IMG/VR virus record: IMGVR_UViG_3300014510_000013
Strand: one strand, 5' to 3'
DNA: 4,243 nt
Source: a virus
Taxonomy: Duplodnaviria; Heunggongvirae; Uroviricota; Caudoviricetes
This document shows, one piece after another, positions 1 to 4,243 of the stretch. Under the pieces are notes generated by a model. It ran no database searches and had not been told where the DNA came from. It worked only from the letters and a program-made list of their open reading frames with translations. How positions within the stretch are numbered: position 1 is the stretch's first letter; each line of letters begins with the position of its first letter. A program made the translations under genes and the position numbers.

Positions 1-349
1 GCGCCGCCTCAATTGCAGATAATCTTTGTCTTAATTCTGCGTTTTCTTCTTCCAGTGCTGTTATTCTGTCGTCTGACTCTCTGGCTACCTGAACAAGCAA
101 GCCAGTAACACCAGAATAATCTACTGTGTAATAACGTTCACCTTCTTCACCTTCCGATCCGCTCGCACCGTCCTGATATTTCATTGCGGAACCTACAACT
201 TCTGGGATTGCTTCCAGAGCTTCCTGTGCAATGACACCAGCATAGGGCATACCGTTTTCTTTAAGCGTGTATGTATAGCCGTTCATTTTACGGATGCGGT
301 CGGTTGCATTATCGATCACCTGAATGTTGTCTTTCAGATCCCGGTCGGA
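1..349 (-). other. Region encoding the intramolecular chaperone auto-processing domain (predicted cleavage before Ser227, codon 349..347; Lys232 codon 334..332)
   Basis: HSDRDLK motif with Ser/Lys spacing identical to the catalytic dyad of S74 chaperone domains; downstream conserved blocks as listed for the parent CDS. Confidence 0.65.
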
Positions 350-1027
350 ATGCTGGTTAAATGCGGTGGCATGACATGCACCATTAACGCTTAACATATA
401 GGTGTTATCGGTATTTTTCTGCGCATAGAACATATAAGCGCCACCATCAACACCGACTTCATAAACAACCGGACGGCTAGAGTTGCCCCACAATTTAGCA
501 GTAACACCAGCATAAGCGGTTCCCTGTGTGGTTAATGTCATGGTTGACCCGTGATTAGCATATTTGATCTGTAATGAGTCTGTATTATCAAACTTAATAA
601 GCGCGTTACTTCCCCGCACACCATACGACATGAGACAGTTCCCCATCTTAAGGTAACCATCACTGCCTGGAAAAATTAAAGTTCCTCCGTTAAGATCACT
701 AAAGTCCCAAAAGATACCTTTTGTCCCGTTATGTGTGACGATCCTCGTCATTGTATCTTTAGTACCATCAATATTTTTTCTGGTATATATGTCACTATAA
801 GCGTTTTCCGTTTCACCAGTCTTATTTGACAAATGCAGCTTACCGCTGAATATAGTTCCAGTTGTTGGCAATGTTTTTTGATCATAGATTACTTTGCAAT
901 AACCATTCCATGTTGTTTTATTGTCTACATAAGATTTTGTTGCGTAGCTTCCTTGATCGTTTTTTAATTTGCTAACGTCGGATTTTAGCGTTTTGATGTC
1001 ATCAGGAATTACTGTTTTTGTAACCAT
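1..1027 (-). CDS. Tail fibre / tailspike-like protein with C-terminal intramolecular chaperone (peptidase S74-like) domain; partial, C-terminus runs off the window start
   Basis: Minus-strand reading frame open from ATG at 1027..1025 to the window edge (342 codons, no stop); not in the ORF track because it is partial. GGAG at 1038..1035, 7 nt upstream of the ATG. My hand translation begins MVTKTVIPDDIKTLKSDVSKLKNDQGSYATKSYVDNKTTWNGY. Residues 227-342 (nt 349..2) read SDRDLKDNIQVIDNATDRIRKMNGYTYTLKENGMPYAGVIAQEALEAIPEVV...ERYYTVDYSGVTGLLVQVARESDDRITALEEENAELRQRLSAIEAA, which matches the conserved pattern of the endosialidase/T5 L-shaped-fibre chaperone domain (Ser then Lys at i+5, G-x-IAQE, DYS..L..L, terminal helix). 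Family assignment is from memory, not a search. Confidence 0.75.
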   Translation of the reverse strand, partial: MVTKTVIPDDIKTLKSDVSKLKNDQGSYATKSYVDNKTTWNGYCKVIYDQKTLPTTGTIFSGKLHLSNKTGETENAYSDIYTRKNIDGTKDTMTRIVTHNGTKGIFWDFSDLNGGTLIFPGSDGYLKMGNCLMSYGVRGSNALIKFDNTDSLQIKYANHGSTMTLTTQGTAYAGVTAKLWGNSSRPVVYEVGVDGGAYMFYAQKNTDNTYMLSVNGACHATAFNQHSDRDLKDNIQVIDNATDRIRKMNGYTYTLKENGMPYAGVIAQEALEAIPEVVGSAMKYQDGASGSEGEEGERYYTVDYSGVTGLLVQVARESDDRITALEEENAELRQRLSAIEAA

Positions 1028-1039
1028 TGTCTTACTCCA

Positions 1040-1309
1040 TTAAGCCCATGTCCTTACATGCTGATCTGTCGTAATGAAAGGCATTAAAGAAGATATGTTT
1101 TTACTGCTATCAACAATCCTCATGTTTACGAAAAAACCACCGCGATCAATGCCTGTACATCTTTCGTTTTCTGGCTCCTCGTAATCAATAATGCAGCCAA
1201 TAACATCAACAAGAACCCCATTTTCTTCTTCAAGACTGAACAGGCCACTGTCATATACAATTGCGTTAAACTGTTCTCTGTTATCGAATCGTAATGTTAT
1301 ATCCCGCAT
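1040..1309 (-). CDS. Hypothetical small acidic protein (89 aa), translationally coupled to stf; function unknown, possibly a fibre assembly or adaptor factor
   Basis: ORF from the track. ATG at 1309..1307 shares one nucleotide with the stf stop TAA (1311..1309), giving a TAATG overlap. AAGGAA lies 8 nt upstream inside the stf 3' end. Stop TAA at 1042..1040. About 16 Asp+Glu versus 8 Lys+Arg; no transmembrane-length hydrophobic segment. I recognise no similarity to lambda Tfa / T4 gp38. Confidence 0.6.
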   Translation of the reverse strand: MRDITLRFDNREQFNAIVYDSGLFSLEEENGVLVDVIGCIIDYEEPENERCTGIDRGGFFVNMRIVDSSKNISSLMPFITTDQHVRTWA

Positions 1310-3672
1310 TATACGTATTCCTTAAGCTGCGTATCTGACAATGCTCTGTTCCAGAAACGGAGGTTTTTTATATGACCATTAAGGTGTCGTAATCCTGTCG
1401 TCGTTTGCCCCCCGATTCGAATCACGGCTGCTTCACGAATATATTTCCATACTGTTTTGGTTTCAGTGCTTATATGCTTATTTGCAAATGAGCATGTCAT
1501 GCCGTCAGCCTTAACCCTGAATCCCATAACGAGATCTCTTACTCCGCATGACTCATATACACGCCGGTTAGCCCCGCCTATATCGCAATACGAATAACCA
1601 TCCTGACTGATAGTTCCAGAAGAACCAAACCCCATAATAAATAGGCCTCCGGACTGGTGATTTTCTGAATCAATGACACGCGGTGCAGCATTATGAGAAA
1701 TAAACCAGTTTTTATGGACTTCCACCATGAACGTAAAAGGCATGGTATACATATTTTTCATCAGCGGAAACTTACATAAATCTGATGCACGAGTCGCTGG
1801 CTCTGTTGTCGTTATGATAAAGGAAGTTGCACAAGCACCATACTCAAATTGCGGGGTGGTTACTTCTATCCAGTCACCTGTTGCAAAAGACCCCACAGCT
1901 CTGTCGGCTGCAATTTGCAACTGCGTACCAACCATTCCCCATTCTGGCAGACATTTCAGGGTTGCCTGAAAATATATCCATCCACTACCTGGATCGATTT
2001 CAAAGTTTGCTGTTAATAGCTGGGCATTATCACCCGTAATTTGTAGTTCATGGGTCTGTAATGACAAATAGGCGTCACAAAGGAAAGTGTATCCTTCCGA
2101 GTTATACCGTTCAAAACGGATACGTGCGCGAACATTGAGATCACTTCTTACCCTGAACGACGCGGTAACATACGGACCTTTACTGTACTGATCATCGCCA
2201 GTCACATCTATGCCTCTATTACCAGCAACTGTGCATATATTTCTCCCTGTTGTCGTTCCTGCTATGTCGCTTCCTACTGTGAAACGTCCATATTTAAACT
2301 CAAATTCATCTGTTGATGATGTTACAGATATACCACCGCTTTTATTCCACGCATCAGGATTAAAACTATTTACGAACATGTTTGTTCGCTGATTCTCTAT
2401 CAGCAAACCATATTTTTCAAAACGAGGAACGTTATTCCCTGCCACGGTAATATGCCCGGACTTATCAATATACGTTGCAGATGAAGCCCGGCTAAATTGG
2501 CATATGCCATTAACTGGCACAGTAATTTCATCGCTGCCGATGGTTATTGTTTTATACCCCGGCGCATACCCTGTTATCGCTTCCAGAGAATCATTCAAGG
2601 GTAGCCAGATATCAGGAAGCGGAGGGACAGAAGCAGGATCAGCGGCATCTTCTGCAATCCTGGCTGCATTCTCTGCTCTTGTTGCGGCTGACGTTGCTTC
2701 TGTCTCGCTGGCTGCTGCTTTTGTTTCGCTCGCCTTTGCGTTAGTTTCACTGGTTTTTGCAGCTTTTTGGCTATTAGCTGCCGCTGTTGCAGAACCGGCT
2801 GCAGCACTCTCGCTTTCGGCTGCTGCATCCTGACTGCTTTTCGCCGCAGTTTCGCTGGCTTTGGCATTCGTTTCGCTGGTCTTTGCTGCCGTCTGGCTGG
2901 ACTTTGCGTTAGTTTCACTCGTCTTTNNNNNNNNNNNNNNNNNNNNNNNNNNNNNNNNNNNNNNNNNNNNNNNNNNNNNNNNNNNNNNNNNNNNNNNNNN
3001 NNNNNNNNNNNNNNNNNNNNNNNNNNNNNNNNNNTTTTTTGCCGCAGTTTCACTGGCTTTGGCATTCGTTTCGCTGGTCTTCGCTGCCGTCTGGCTGGAC
3101 TTTGCGTTGGTTTCGCTCGTCTTTGCGGCTGTCTCGCTGTTTTTTGCGTTGGTTTCTGATTTTTTGGCTGCTGTCGCGGAGTTTGCCGATGCAGTCTGCG
3201 AGGTCGCTGCCGCCTGTGCGCTGTTAGCTGCATTCGTTTCTGAGGTTTTCGCCGCGTTCTTCGATGATGCCGCTGCAGTTTCGGATTTCTTTGCCGCCGC
3301 TGCGCTCTGAGAGGCGGCTTCAGCGTTGCGTGCCGCTTCTTCCACCATTTCCTCAAAACGACGCAATGCCTCCGGCATGACATCATCTTCCGTCATGGCG
3401 CCGAGAAAATCATTCAGCGTACCTGGTCTGGAACCTTCATAGACGGTAATGGTCCCGGCATGTGAAGGCGGAAAACCTTCAACCAGCAGGATGACGCTGT
3501 ACTGGCCATACTCAACATCCAGGCTGTACCGTCCGTCTTCATCCGGATTTTCAGAGGCCACCGTGTTCACCAGTACCGTGGTGCTGTTACGCTTTGCCTT
3601 CAGTTGAATAGTGCAGTTCTGTATTGGTTTTCCCGCACCATCTTTCAGCACACCTGAAATCTGTACTGCCAT
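1309..3672 (-). CDS. stf: Side tail fibre protein: lambda Stf-like N-terminal domain, Ala/Ser/Thr-rich heptad-repeat shaft, divergent distal domain
   Basis: Long minus-strand ORF; the track starts at GTG 3678, but the in-frame ATG at 3672..3670 has GGAG at 3681..3678 and gives MAVQISGVLKDGAGKPIQNCTIQLKAKRNSTTV, which I recall as the conserved N-terminus of lambda-family Stf proteins (not searched). Central K-x-S-E-T-[N/A]-A heptads. C-terminus ends GHIKNLRFWNRALSDTQLKEYV, stop TAA 1311..1309. The ORF stays in frame across the 108-N run. Confidence 0.88.
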   Translation of the reverse strand: MAVQISGVLKDGAGKPIQNCTIQLKAKRNSTTVLVNTVASENPDEDGRYSLDVEYGQYSVILLVEGFPPSHAGTITVYEGSRPGTLNDFLGAMTEDDVMPEALRRFEEMVEEAARNAEAASQSAAAAKKSETAAASSKNAAKTSETNAANSAQAAATSQTASANSATAAKKSETNAKNSETAAKTSETNAKSSQTAAKTSETNAKASETAAKXXXXXXXXXXXXXXXXXXXXXXXXXXXXXXXXXXXXXKTSETNAKSSQTAAKTSETNAKASETAAKSSQDAAAESESAAAGSATAAANSQKAAKTSETNAKASETKAAASETEATSAATRAENAARIAEDAADPASVPPLPDIWLPLNDSLEAITGYAPGYKTITIGSDEITVPVNGICQFSRASSATYIDKSGHITVAGNNVPRFEKYGLLIENQRTNMFVNSFNPDAWNKSGGISVTSSTDEFEFKYGRFTVGSDIAGTTTGRNICTVAGNRGIDVTGDDQYSKGPYVTASFRVRSDLNVRARIRFERYNSEGYTFLCDAYLSLQTHELQITGDNAQLLTANFEIDPGSGWIYFQATLKCLPEWGMVGTQLQIAADRAVGSFATGDWIEVTTPQFEYGACATSFIITTTEPATRASDLCKFPLMKNMYTMPFTFMVEVHKNWFISHNAAPRVIDSENHQSGGLFIMGFGSSGTISQDGYSYCDIGGANRRVYESCGVRDLVMGFRVKADGMTCSFANKHISTETKTVWKYIREAAVIRIGGQTTTGLRHLNGHIKNLRFWNRALSDTQLKEYV
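2632..3330 (-). repeat. Tandem 21-nt (heptad-coding) repeat array inside stf, with higher-order units of about 198 nt
   Basis: Protein reads KKSETNA KNSETAA KTSETNA KSSQTAA KTSETNA KASETAA on both sides of the gap. On the + strand 2843..2926 and 3041..3124 are 84-nt copies with 4 mismatches, offset 198 nt. Confidence 0.8.
2927..3034. other. Run of 108 N (masked or unresolved sequence) inside the stf repeat array
   Basis: Directly visible; the length is a multiple of 3, so the stf frame continues across it. Confidence 0.99.
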
Positions 3673-3683
3673 ACTCACTCCAC

Positions 3684-3711
3684 AAATAAAAAAGGCGCCA
3701 TTGCTGGCGCC
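3684..3711 (-). terminator. Rho-independent terminator-like hairpin plus U-tract between the upstream tail gene and stf
   Basis: The minus strand reads GGCGCCA-GCAA-TGGCGCC (perfect 7-bp GC-rich stem, 4-nt loop; + coords 3711..3694) followed immediately by TTTTTTATTT (3693..3684). It lies between the upstream ORF stop (TGA 3735..3733) and the stf RBS. Confidence 0.6.
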
Positions 3712-3732
3712 CGTATTGGGGTTATAAATATT

Positions 3733-4243
3733 TCAACGGATACTGATACCGGAAGCAGCTTTTTTGGTCACAATCACCGTACAGTCTGTGATGTTTCCTG
3801 CGCCCTGATTGCCTTTCTGGAAAATCTTAAACTCCAGAGTGACGTTACCACCACCACTCGGCATATCAATAACCGCACTGTAACTACCGGGAATGGCTCC
3901 TTTAGTTTCTCTGGATGCGATTAATACGCCATTTTTGCGAACTTCAAAACCATAACCCGTGTATCGCGTACCTCCCGGGTTATTACCGCTCCCCGGATCG
4001 TCATACGCCACACCGTTAAAAATAATGGGCGGAATAATGATTTGGCGGTCAAAGTTATGATCATCGTAAATGGTGACTGTAACCGTCCCGTTTGGTGTTT
4101 CCGTGTTACCCCACGTACCAGCCTTTTTCGGGAATGATTTGGATACAGTTTTAACGAAGTCACCTCTGACCTGGTTCGCCTCCAGCATGCCCTTAATCGT
4201 ACAGTTTTCATTTACCGTGACATTATTGAGCGTCCCGGAGTTC
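3733..4243 (-). CDS. C-terminal fragment of a phage tail structural protein (possibly central tail fibre / host-specificity J-like); 5' end lies outside the window
   Basis: The track ORF starts at Met 4188, but the frame stays open upstream to the window end (my translation of 4243..4189: NSGTLNNVTVNENCTIKG, no stop), so it is the end of a longer protein. Gly/Thr/Val-rich, beta-strand-like composition; stop TGA 3735..3733. Immediately upstream of stf, where lambdoid phages carry J (and sometimes lom). This is not Lom-like by my recollection of the Lom sequence. Identity is tentative. Confidence 0.55.
   Translation of the reverse strand, partial: NSGTLNNVTVNENCTIKGMLEANQVRGDFVKTVSKSFPKKAGTWGNTETPNGTVTVTIYDDHNFDRQIIIPPIIFNGVAYDDPGSGNNPGGTRYTGYGFEVRKNGVLIASRETKGAIPGSYSAVIDMPSGGGNVTLEFKIFQKGNQGAGNITDCTVIVTKKAASGISIR

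What the first reader, a model, noticed from the sequence alone, without database searches (positions are those of the whole stretch)
1..1027. Short fibre with an intact Ser/Lys auto-cleavage dyad and only about 226 residues of mature protein
The HSDRDLK motif (Ser227, Lys232) and downstream blocks (NI..I.N...RI, G-x-IAQE, DYS..L, terminal helix) match endosialidase-type chaperone domains, which excise themselves after folding a trimeric beta-rich tip. The mature part (residues 1-226) is unusually short for a fibre: a brief N-terminal segment that looks helical by composition (DIKTLKSDVSKLKND) and a compact Gly/Thr/Asn-rich domain. That argues for a tip or adaptor-mounted receptor-binding protein, not a free-standing fibre.
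Basis: partly seen in the sequence, partly recalled or inferred. Interest (0 to 1): 0.55.

Follow-up and report, generated by a model that had tools for sequence, protein, structure and literature searches.

The report
Short self-cleaving second tail-fibre subunit
This gene of a lambda-like E. coli prophage encodes a very short tail-fibre protein that most likely folds with a self-removing C-terminal chaperone and plugs onto the main side fibre through a conserved N-terminal peptide; it is a well-sampled, already annotated kind of protein, so it is ordinary rather than new.

Summary
The minus-strand ORF at 1-1027 gives 342 of 346 codons. HSDRDLK sits at residues 226-232 (Ser227, Lys232). Pfam Peptidase_S74 matches residues 227-278 at E=6e-14. 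The dyad is kept in 66/66 (Ser) and 65/66 (Lys) unique family members.

The mature part (226 aa, 24.8 kDa) has four pieces: a 16-residue N-terminal peptide, a short helix, a variable beta domain, and a domain homologous to the trimeric P3 beta-prism of T4 gp34. The released part would be 13.2 kDa.

The "mounted, not free-standing" reading is supported by comparison. The gene is the third of a triad: proximal fibre with a ConA/galectin-like C-terminus, a ~90-aa protein, then a second fibre. The triad recurs in lambda-like, T1-like, T5-like and 9g-like coliphages.

- The proximal fibre's N-terminal anchor differs among lambda/9g-like, T1-like and T5-like phages.
- Second-fibre alleles of 227-589 aa all start with M-x-T-x-T-x-IP-x-DI-x-x-LK.
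- They swap independently of their neighbours.

The same module was modelled for T5-like phage IrisVonRoten (Humolli 2025). PHROGs and NCBI already call this family a tail fibre. Verdict: a real, correctly read, ordinary new member of a known kind. The docking partner, cleavage and receptor are untested.

The parts
1..1027 (-). Gene for the short S74 tail-fibre protein: 342 of 346 codons, with the C-terminal 4 codons and stop beyond the window edge
   Evidence: Translation. Full-length 346-aa relatives. phrog_4563 'tail fiber protein' matches full length, E=9e-207.
977..1027 (-). Residues 1-17: conserved N-terminal peptide MVTKTVIPDDIKTLKSD, the proposed docking peptide
   Evidence: M1, T5, I7, P8, D10, I11, L14 and K15 are invariant across nine alleles from lambda-like, T1-like and 9g-like phages and IMG/VR contigs of unassigned phage type. 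12 of 17 residues are identical to T5-like IrisVonRoten Gp24. It is the most conserved part of the mature protein in the family.
941..1003 (-). Residues 9-29: short amphipathic helix, a probable trimeric coiled-coil stalk
   Evidence: AlphaFold2 helix 9-29 at pLDDT 52-69. a/d hydrophobic pattern at I11, L14, V18, L21.
674..925 (-). Residues ~35-118: first beta-rich domain, the most variable part of the family and a candidate specificity determinant
   Evidence: AlphaFold2 strands 58-118 at pLDDT about 80-85. Lowest conservation, 0.56-0.77. The Tritos-type allele is only 55% identical over residues 1-129, against 81% overall.
362..577 (-). Residues ~151-222: second beta domain, homologous to the trimeric P3 beta-prism of T4 gp34; the tip that the chaperone would fold
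   Evidence: Profile of A1 against PDB: 5nxf, 5nxh and 4uxe at E 7.5e-9 to 1.2e-8, aligning ~165-223 to gp34 958-1023. P3 description in PMC5537660. AlphaFold2 strands 151-214 at pLDDT ~90. W180, G181 and R185 are invariant.
332..352 (-). HSDRDLK (residues 226-232): predicted cleavage site before Ser227, with Lys232 as the general base
   Evidence: Start of the PF13884 match. Conservation. Mechanism by analogy with T5 pb1 Ser1264/Lys1269 (PMC4690869).
1..349 (-). Residues 227-342 (346 in full): intramolecular chaperone domain, including the C-terminal coiled-coil helix 304-341
1028..1039 (-). 12-nt spacer with a GGAG ribosome-binding site 8 nt before the ATG
   Evidence: Sequence read directly.
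1040..1309 (-). 89-aa protein (phrog_1361, function unknown): constant companion of the ConA-like fibre end, either a chaperone or an adaptor. Its start overlaps the Stf stop (TAATG).
   Evidence: Found immediately upstream of every docking-motif fibre examined. Also present without a second fibre.
1309..3678 (-). Stf-type proximal side tail fibre (789 codons including a run of N): N-terminal tail anchor, Ala/Ser/Thr/Lys/Glu-rich repeat shaft, conserved junction, ConA/galectin-like C-terminal region
   Evidence: PF08400 E=5e-67 and a weak Laminin_G_3 match. NF048003. phrog_1419. Cross-family conservation peak at PhiR11_1 Stf residues 345-430.
3693..3712 (-). Terminator-like hairpin followed by a T-run, between J and stf
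   Evidence: 8 pairs, 6 of them G-C.
3733..4243 (-). 3' end of the tail-tip gene J (receptor-binding C-terminal domain), open to the right window edge
   Evidence: PF12421 E=8e-27. Open frame to the edge. Annotated as J in PhiR11_1.

Best explanation
The ORF encodes a short second (distal or branch) subunit of the phage's side tail fibre.

**Folding and cleavage.** Three chains are proposed to fold into a small trimer. A C-terminal S74 intramolecular chaperone nucleates that fold. Once the trimer is correct, Ser227, activated by Lys232, cuts the chain in front of itself. This releases a 13-kDa fragment and leaves a 226-residue (24.8 kDa) mature protein.

**Layout of the mature protein.** It consists of a conserved 16-residue N-terminal peptide, a short coiled coil, a variable beta domain and a gp34-P3-like beta-prism tip.

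**Mounting.** It has no tail anchor of its own. It is carried by the Stf-type proximal fibre module through the N-terminal peptide. The partner is either the conserved junction and ConA-like end of Stf or the 89-aa protein encoded between the two genes. It behaves as an exchangeable receptor-binding cartridge.

**Shown:** the S74 domain and dyad, homology of the tip domain to a solved trimeric beta-prism, the conserved gene triad, the shared N-terminal peptide, and the independent swapping of alleles.

**Inferred:** trimerisation, actual cleavage, the docking partner, and receptor binding.
For: **S74 domain and dyad**
- PF13884 at 227-278, E=6e-14.
- Ser227 and Lys232 are present and conserved in 66/66 and 65/66 unique family members.
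- The Ser/Lys +5 mechanism, and the requirement for a correct trimer before cleavage, are established for T5 pb1 (PMC4690869).

**Tip domain**
- It is homologous to the T4 gp34 P3 trimeric beta-prism at E about 1e-8 (PMC5537660).

**Family assignment**
- phrog_4563 'tail fiber protein' matches full length.
- NCBI names relatives 'tail fiber domain-containing protein'.

**The triad (proximal fibre, ~90 aa, second fibre) recurs across phage groups**
- Lambda-like: PhiR11_1 and Tritos.
- 9g-like: JenP1 gp23-25.
- T1-like: Jahat_MG145 and L003.
- T5-like: mar004NP2 and IrisVonRoten.

**Anchor versus docking peptide**
- The proximal fibre has PF08400 in lambda-like and 9g-like phages only. Its N-terminus is replaced in T1-like and T5-like phages, while the rest stays 40-46% identical.
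- Second-fibre alleles of 227, 231, 335, 340, 346, 351, 576 and 583 aa all begin with the same motif.
- That N-terminus is 12/17 identical between this protein and T5-like Gp24, although the remainder is only 24% identical.

**Linkage and exchange**
- All 116 motif-bearing loci have the ~90-aa gene directly upstream.
- In a genome scan the 3 true hits had it and the 6 chance hits did not.
- The 346-aa type occurs with at least 3 types of 90-aa protein and at least 8 Stf C-terminal clusters. The window-type neighbours occur with either a 346-aa or a 227-aa fibre.

**Published precedent**
- AlphaFold-Multimer modelling places IrisVonRoten Gp24 on proximal fibre Gp22, which has a galectin-like C-terminal domain (PMC11990801).
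Against: - No experiment or multimer model for this protein was available.
- The monomer AlphaFold2 model is mediocre (pLDDT 68.5), with the chaperone domain poorly modelled.
- The 100% linkage with the ~90-aa gene comes mostly from closely related E. coli prophages, so those loci are not independent observations.
- The ~90-aa protein also occurs without any second fibre: 4 of 37 loci, and rV5-like naswa. It may therefore serve Stf rather than this protein.
- The most variable region is the first beta domain, not the tip next to the chaperone. Where a receptor would bind is therefore unclear.
Confidence: 0.7

Rival explanations
1. It is a free-standing short fibre. It binds directly to the tail tip or baseplate of the lambda-like tail, independently of Stf and the 89-aa protein.
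For: - It is a separate gene with its own ribosome-binding site.
- Some siphoviruses carry several independently anchored fibres (general knowledge).
Against: - It has no PF08400 or other anchor domain.
- The same N-terminal peptide occurs in phages with unrelated tail tips (lambda-, T1-, T5- and 9g-like), whereas the proximal fibre uses a different anchor in lambda/9g-like, T1-like and T5-like phages.
- In the loci examined it was always preceded by the ~90-aa gene.
Confidence: 0.1
2. It is a decaying remnant or moron. On this reading it is an N-terminally shortened leftover of a longer S74 fibre that is no longer built into particles.
For: - Longer fibres of 450-600 aa, and phrog_6578 (1210 aa), share residues ~115-342.
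- Truncated copies of 90, 189, 194 and 299 aa exist in some prophages.
Against: - 66 unique intact ~346-aa variants keep the frame, the dyad and the N-terminus.
- The same protein is present at 83% identity in the virulent phage JenP1, which cannot afford dead structural genes.
- The N-terminal 30 residues are more conserved than the body, which indicates function rather than decay.
Confidence: 0.05
3. It is mounted as proposed but is not a receptor-binding protein. It would instead be a structural cap or spacer of the fibre end, or its S74 domain would stay attached.
For: - Alleles in the same slot can have a mature part of only 108 residues, little more than docking peptide plus coiled coil. 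That is hard to picture as a receptor binder.
- Stf itself carries a lectin-like end that could be the real binding domain.
Against: - The slot shows allelic exchange, and the first beta domain shows sequence variability typical of host-range determinants.
- Homologous slots in T5-like phages hold fibres regarded as O-antigen binders (PMC11990801).
- T5 pb1 binds its receptor only after the chaperone is released (PMC4690869).
Confidence: 0.12

Closest known systems
Two-part lateral tail fibre of T5-like phage IrisVonRoten (Bas32): Gp22 proximal fibre with galectin-like end, Gp23 (92 aa), Gp24 distal fibre with chaperone domain (Humolli et al. 2025, PMC11990801)
   Same: - Same gene order and the same three families. 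The proximal fibre of the closely related T5-like phage mar004NP2 is 46% identical to Stf outside the anchor. IrisVonRoten's own proximal fibre was not compared directly.
- The ~90-aa homologue is ~32% identical (measured on mar004NP2).
- The second fibre starts with the same peptide (12/17 identical) and ends in an S74 domain.
   Different: - Gp24 is 574 aa and described as T-shaped with two binding domains. This protein is 346 aa and aligns only with Gp24's last ~300 residues at 24% identity.
- The anchor of the proximal fibre is T5-type there and lambda Stf-type here.
T5 L-shaped tail fibre pb1 C-terminal domain with intramolecular chaperone (PDB 4UW7/4UW8; Garcia-Doval 2015, PMC4690869)
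   Same: - C-terminal S74 chaperone with a Ser/Lys dyad at the same +5 spacing.
- A central coiled coil.
- Cleavage expected only after correct trimer folding.
   Different: - pb1 is a single ~1400-aa chain anchored directly to the tail.
- Its bullet-shaped tip was not retrieved by sequence or fold search with this protein.
T4 gp34 proximal long tail fibre, P3 beta-prism (PDB 5NXF/5NXH/4UXE)
   Same: Residues ~165-223 align to gp34 958-1023 at E about 1e-8, sharing the WG..R..V.EVG...FY.Q.N..G....VNG motif.
   Different: - gp34 has no S74 domain.
- In gp34 the prism is an internal bead of a long fibre. Here it is the last domain before the cleavage site.
Branched lateral tail fibre LtfA/LtfB of T5-like phages DT57C and DT571/2 (Golomidova 2016, PMC4728585; Ayala 2023, PMC10713586)
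   Same: A second S74-bearing fibre protein with no tail anchor is carried by the first fibre and extends host range.
   Different: - LtfB's docking N-terminus is of the phiEco32 gp15 type.
- No ~90-aa gene is described between ltfA and ltfB.
- LtfA itself ends in an S74 domain rather than a lectin-like domain.
Endosialidase (K1F) C-terminal chaperone and eukaryotic MyRF ICA domain (Peptidase S74 founders)
   Different: Those chaperones fold large enzymes or a transcription factor. Here the client is only 226 residues with no enzymatic domain detected.

Membership tests
Peptidase S74 / intramolecular chaperone of phage fibres and spikes (PF13884) | Significant match to the family profile above the curated threshold | tested here: met
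   E=6e-14, 52.5 bits against a cut-off of 22; residues 227-278 match profile positions 1-57 of 58.
Peptidase S74 / intramolecular chaperone of phage fibres and spikes (PF13884) | Catalytic Ser at the first position of the domain, with Lys five residues downstream | tested here: met
   Ser227 and Lys232, conserved in 66/66 and 65/66 members. T5 pb1 has the same spacing, Ser1264/Lys1269.
Peptidase S74 / intramolecular chaperone of phage fibres and spikes (PF13884) | Domain lies at the C-terminus, directly after a trimeric beta-structured client domain | tested here: inconclusive
   The position is C-terminal. The preceding ~60 residues are homologous to a solved trimeric beta-prism. Only a monomer could be modelled, and fold searches were not significant.
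Peptidase S74 / intramolecular chaperone of phage fibres and spikes (PF13884) | C-terminal helix forming the central trimeric coiled coil of the chaperone | tested here: inconclusive
   A long helix is modelled at 304-341, and the profile hits coiled-coil entries over that stretch. The oligomeric state was not modelled.
Peptidase S74 / intramolecular chaperone of phage fibres and spikes (PF13884) | Autoproteolytic release of the domain after folding | not testable with these tools
   This needs expression with wild-type and S227A/K232A forms. The expected fragments are 24.8 and 13.2 kDa.
Lambda Stf-type side tail fibre (anchored through PF08400) | N-terminal 'prophage tail fibre N-terminal' anchor domain | tested here: not met
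   S74 is the only Pfam hit. The neighbouring 789-aa protein has PF08400 at E=5e-67. This protein is therefore not an Stf.
Second (distal) subunit of the Stf/Gp22-type two-part lateral fibre module | Encoded directly after a ~90-aa phrog_1361 gene, which follows a fibre with a ConA/galectin-like C-terminal region | tested here: met
   Window gene order. The same order is found in JenP1, Tritos, Jahat_MG145, mar004NP2 and IrisVonRoten.
Second (distal) subunit of the Stf/Gp22-type two-part lateral fibre module | N-terminal motif M-x-T-x-T-x-IP-x-DI-x-x-LK | tested here: met
   MVTKTVIPDDIKTLK is present. Eight positions are invariant across nine alleles.
Second (distal) subunit of the Stf/Gp22-type two-part lateral fibre module | Physical attachment to the proximal fibre in the virion | not testable with these tools
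   Only a published AlphaFold-Multimer model exists, for the T5-like homologue. No multimer tool or virion data were available here.
T5 pb1-like 'bullet' receptor-binding tip | Fold similarity of the domain preceding the chaperone to PDB 4UW7 | tested here: inconclusive

The most novel reading that the evidence does not exclude
The 16-residue N-terminal peptide and the ~90-aa protein (phrog_1361) could form a universal plug-and-socket. It would let lambda-like, T1-like, T5-like, 9g-like and Dhillonvirus coliphages exchange distal receptor-binding cartridges freely. On this reading the S74 proteins in this slot, with mature parts of 226 or even 108 residues, are the smallest chaperone-dependent fibre units known. 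The ~90-aa protein would be a structural adaptor rather than a folding chaperone.
Probability: 0.3. Interest if true: 0.55.

Novelty: new member of a known kind. Interest (0 to 1): 0.3.

Why it matters
Side-fibre modules decide which E. coli strains a temperate phage or an engineered lambda particle can reach. If short S74 cartridges dock through a 16-residue peptide that is conserved across four or five coliphage families, the slot is a natural and compact handle for retargeting. One could swap a 1-kb gene instead of building Stf chimeras.

For annotation, the result says three things:
- The 'hypothetical protein' after stf in records such as PhiR11_1 is a fibre subunit.
- The ~90-aa gene belongs to the fibre module.
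- Lambda-like prophages of this type have a two-part, possibly branched, side fibre and no Tfa.

None of this overturns current understanding.

Tried and rejected
- **NCBIfam.** There was no hit for the target.
- **Idea that the 227-aa ORFs in the same slot are copies truncated at the cleavage site.** Rejected. They are a different allele with their own S74 domain at 109-165.
- **Idea that the DT57C LtfA/LtfB system is the same module.** Rejected. It uses a different docking N-terminus and a different proximal fibre end.
- **Eligo lambda-Stf engineering paper.** It contains nothing on this architecture.
- **Search for the PhiR phage publication.** It found only an unrelated use of PhiR47.
- **Alignment-based scan of genome contigs.** It was replaced by a degenerate DNA pattern, which gave 3 true and 6 chance hits.

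Full report
**What the window is.** All genes lie on the minus strand and form the tail-fibre end of a lambda-like E. coli prophage.
- 3733-4243: the 3' end of J (PF12421; open to the window edge).
- 3693-3712: a terminator-like hairpin.
- 1309-3678: a 789-codon Stf-type side tail fibre. It has PF08400 at the N-terminus, an Ala/Ser/Thr/Lys/Glu repeat shaft interrupted by a run of N, and a ConA-like C-terminal region (weak Laminin_G_3; NF048003).
- 1040-1309: an 89-aa ORF whose ATG overlaps the Stf stop (phrog_1361, function unknown).
- 1-1027: the target ORF, 12 nt further on, behind a GGAG site.

The best phage match is Escherichia phage PhiR11_1, at 94.6% over 1-3141, where the target is annotated 'hypothetical protein'. 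At least 80% of window 1-2920 is present in 86 of 5,426 complete E. coli genomes. There PGAP calls the target 'tail fiber domain-containing protein'.

**Checking the observation.**
- The ORF gives 342 residues and lacks only the last four (…LASK) and the stop.
- HSDRDLK is at 226-232, so Ser227 and Lys232 are as stated.
- Pfam Peptidase_S74 matches 227-278 at E=6e-14, well above the curated threshold.
- The PDB sequence search finds the phage S16 gp37 chain 6f45_A.
- In 66 unique ~346-aa family members, Ser227 is invariant and Lys232 is present in 65.
- The composition claim (Thr, Gly, Asn rich) and the ~13 kDa released fragment are also correct.

**Anatomy of the mature part.** The AlphaFold2 monomer model is mediocre overall (pLDDT 68.5). 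It gives a helix at 9-29, a confident beta domain at ~58-118, a poorly defined stretch at 120-150, a confident beta domain at 151-214, and a long C-terminal helix at 304-341.

A profile of 52 homologues matches T4 gp34 at E about 1e-8 over residues ~165-223, corresponding to gp34 958-1023. In the gp34 crystal structure that segment is the P3 domain. P3 is a trimeric prism of three five-stranded antiparallel sheets, flanked by triple beta-helix (PMC5537660).

The trimer itself could not be modelled, and fold searches with the monomer model were not significant.

Within the family the conservation pattern is as follows:
- The first 30 residues and the chaperone domain are the most conserved (0.88-0.97).
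- Residues 35-110 are the most variable (0.56-0.77).

**How it is mounted.** The protein has no anchor domain. A scan of viral contigs with an alignment of the ~90-aa protein returned 37 loci. The gene downstream of it varies:
- a 346-aa fibre of the target type;
- a quite different 227-234-aa protein with its own S74 domain at 109-165;
- a 330-340-aa fibre without a chaperone domain (PF21446);
- a 576-583-aa S74 fibre;
- in four loci, nothing.

Every one of these fibres begins with M-x-T-x-T-x-IP-x-DI-x-x-LK, with eight invariant positions.

A reciprocal scan with that N-terminus returned 80 loci. In all 116 motif-bearing loci examined, the ~90-aa gene lies directly upstream. This set is dominated by closely related E. 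coli prophages, so the loci are not independent observations. In a pattern scan of one genome per species, the three true hits had the ~90-aa gene and the six chance hits did not.

The stronger evidence is cross-family. The same triad is present in four phage groups:
- lambda-like phages;
- 9g-like JenP1 gp23-25, where gp25 is 83% identical to the target;
- T1-like Jahat_MG145 and L003;
- T5-like mar004NP2 and IrisVonRoten.

The proximal fibre keeps 40-46% identity over its shaft and C-terminal region. Its N-terminal anchor differs between phage groups: PF08400 is found only in lambda-like and 9g-like phages. The second fibre's N-terminal peptide stays the same across all four groups; it is 12/17 identical to T5-like Gp24 while the rest is 24% identical.

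Clustering shows that the 346-aa type occurs with at least three types of ~90-aa protein and at least eight Stf C-terminal clusters. The window's own neighbours occur with either the 346-aa or the 227-aa fibre.

This is the signature of a cartridge that docks onto a conserved part of the module, not onto the tail.

**Which partner?** This is unresolved. The most conserved stretch of the proximal fibre across the four groups is PhiR11_1 Stf residues 345-430, at the junction between the shaft and the ConA-like region.

The ~90-aa protein is always present when a second fibre is. It also occurs without one, both in four prophage loci and in rV5-like phage naswa. There it follows a 1479-aa fibre that shares the last ~420 residues with Stf. 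It is therefore tied first of all to the ConA-like fibre end. It may be that end's chaperone, a docking adaptor, or both. Its predicted fold gave no useful match.

**Mechanism.** This is by analogy with T5 pb1 (PMC4690869).
1. The chaperone domains trimerise and wrap the nascent tip.
2. Only a correctly folded trimer positions Ser227 next to Lys232.
3. The chain is cut before the serine and the chaperone leaves, exposing the tip.

These steps are inferred, not shown here.

**Comparison with what is known.** PHROGs already holds this family as phrog_4563, 'tail fiber protein'.
- Maffei 2021 notes that lateral fibres of small siphoviruses may be built from one polypeptide or from two or more (PMC8594841).
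- Humolli 2025 models IrisVonRoten's distal fibre Gp24 on proximal fibre Gp22, which has a galectin-like end. [quoted passage not shown]
- DT57C LtfA/LtfB is the genetic precedent for a second S74 fibre carried by the first, although it uses a different docking type (PMC4728585, PMC10713586).

The window therefore shows the lambda-like, unusually compact version of a known architecture.

**Verdict.** It is a new member of a known kind, of modest interest. What might repay further work is the generality of the docking peptide and the role of the ~90-aa protein. The extremely short alleles in the same slot, with 108 mature residues, may also be worth a look.

Noticed in passing
L010:6283-6966 (also L009, L014, L028-L030, L032, L033, L036; 231 aa in L045 and Jahat_MG145 L126:5001-5696): A different allele occupies the same slot. 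It is 227-234 aa long, with the same N-terminal peptide, a longer coiled coil and its own S74 domain at 109-165 (Ser109/Lys114). Its mature part would be only 108 residues, which is hard to picture as a receptor-binding domain. It might be a cap or a minimal stub.
   Followed up: partly
window 1040-1309 (-); L128:4001-4333: The ~90-aa protein family (phrog_1361, no Pfam or NCBIfam hit) accompanies ConA-like fibre ends in 206 phage records, including T5-, T1-, 9g-, Dhillonvirus-, lambda- and rV5-like phages. In rV5-like naswa it follows a 1479-aa fibre with no second fibre after it. One BASEL record (KarlJaspers) carries 'putative lateral tail fiber chaperone' among the feature names under the match. 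Its function is untested.
   Followed up: partly
window 2927-3034: A run of 108 N lies inside the Ala/Ser/Thr/Lys/Glu-rich repeat shaft of Stf. Tandem 21/42-nt repeats lie next to it at 3053-3175. This is probably a masked or unassembled repeat. Intact relatives are 784-801 aa.
   Followed up: partly
window 3693-3712 (-): A strong terminator-like hairpin (8 pairs, 6 G-C, then a T-run) sits between J and stf. Fibre-module expression would therefore depend on read-through. The window has no lom and no tfa gene.
   Followed up: no
L001:4657-4944 (-), just beyond the window's left edge: A 95-aa hydrophobic protein (phrog_1443, function unknown) follows the short fibre in PhiR11_1 and Tritos (98% identical). 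Where the second fibre is absent, a 97-102-aa homologue follows the ~90-aa gene directly (L035, L037, L043, L044). It is a possible membrane moron or exclusion protein.
   Followed up: no
L039:3961-4983 and L038:581-1573: Alleles of 330-340 aa in the same slot lack any S74 domain and carry PF21446 (Gp34_trimer), ending in …WYNVASV. The slot therefore accepts fibres that fold without an intramolecular chaperone.
   Followed up: no
L004:8001-9674 (P0063, 557 aa): A longer S74 fibre shares the target's tip and chaperone (about 51% identity over 117-337). It sits in a degraded Rac-like prophage between a ParB_N gene and an ABC-type metal-transporter operon (PF01297/PF00950). It also has a weak PF20691 match.
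   Followed up: no
L131 (JAGZNZ010000051.1, 2.8-kb contig): A contig binned into a Collinsella sp. MAG carries the ~90-aa gene plus a 234-aa second-fibre allele typical of E. coli phages. It is probably a mis-binned phage contig.
   Followed up: no
phrog_6578 (1210-aa profile): One PHROG family matches both the Stf N-terminal region (35-215 to profile 1-192) and the target's tip and chaperone (139-339 to profile 985-1197). In other phages a single long chain therefore combines what is split into two genes here.
   Followed up: no
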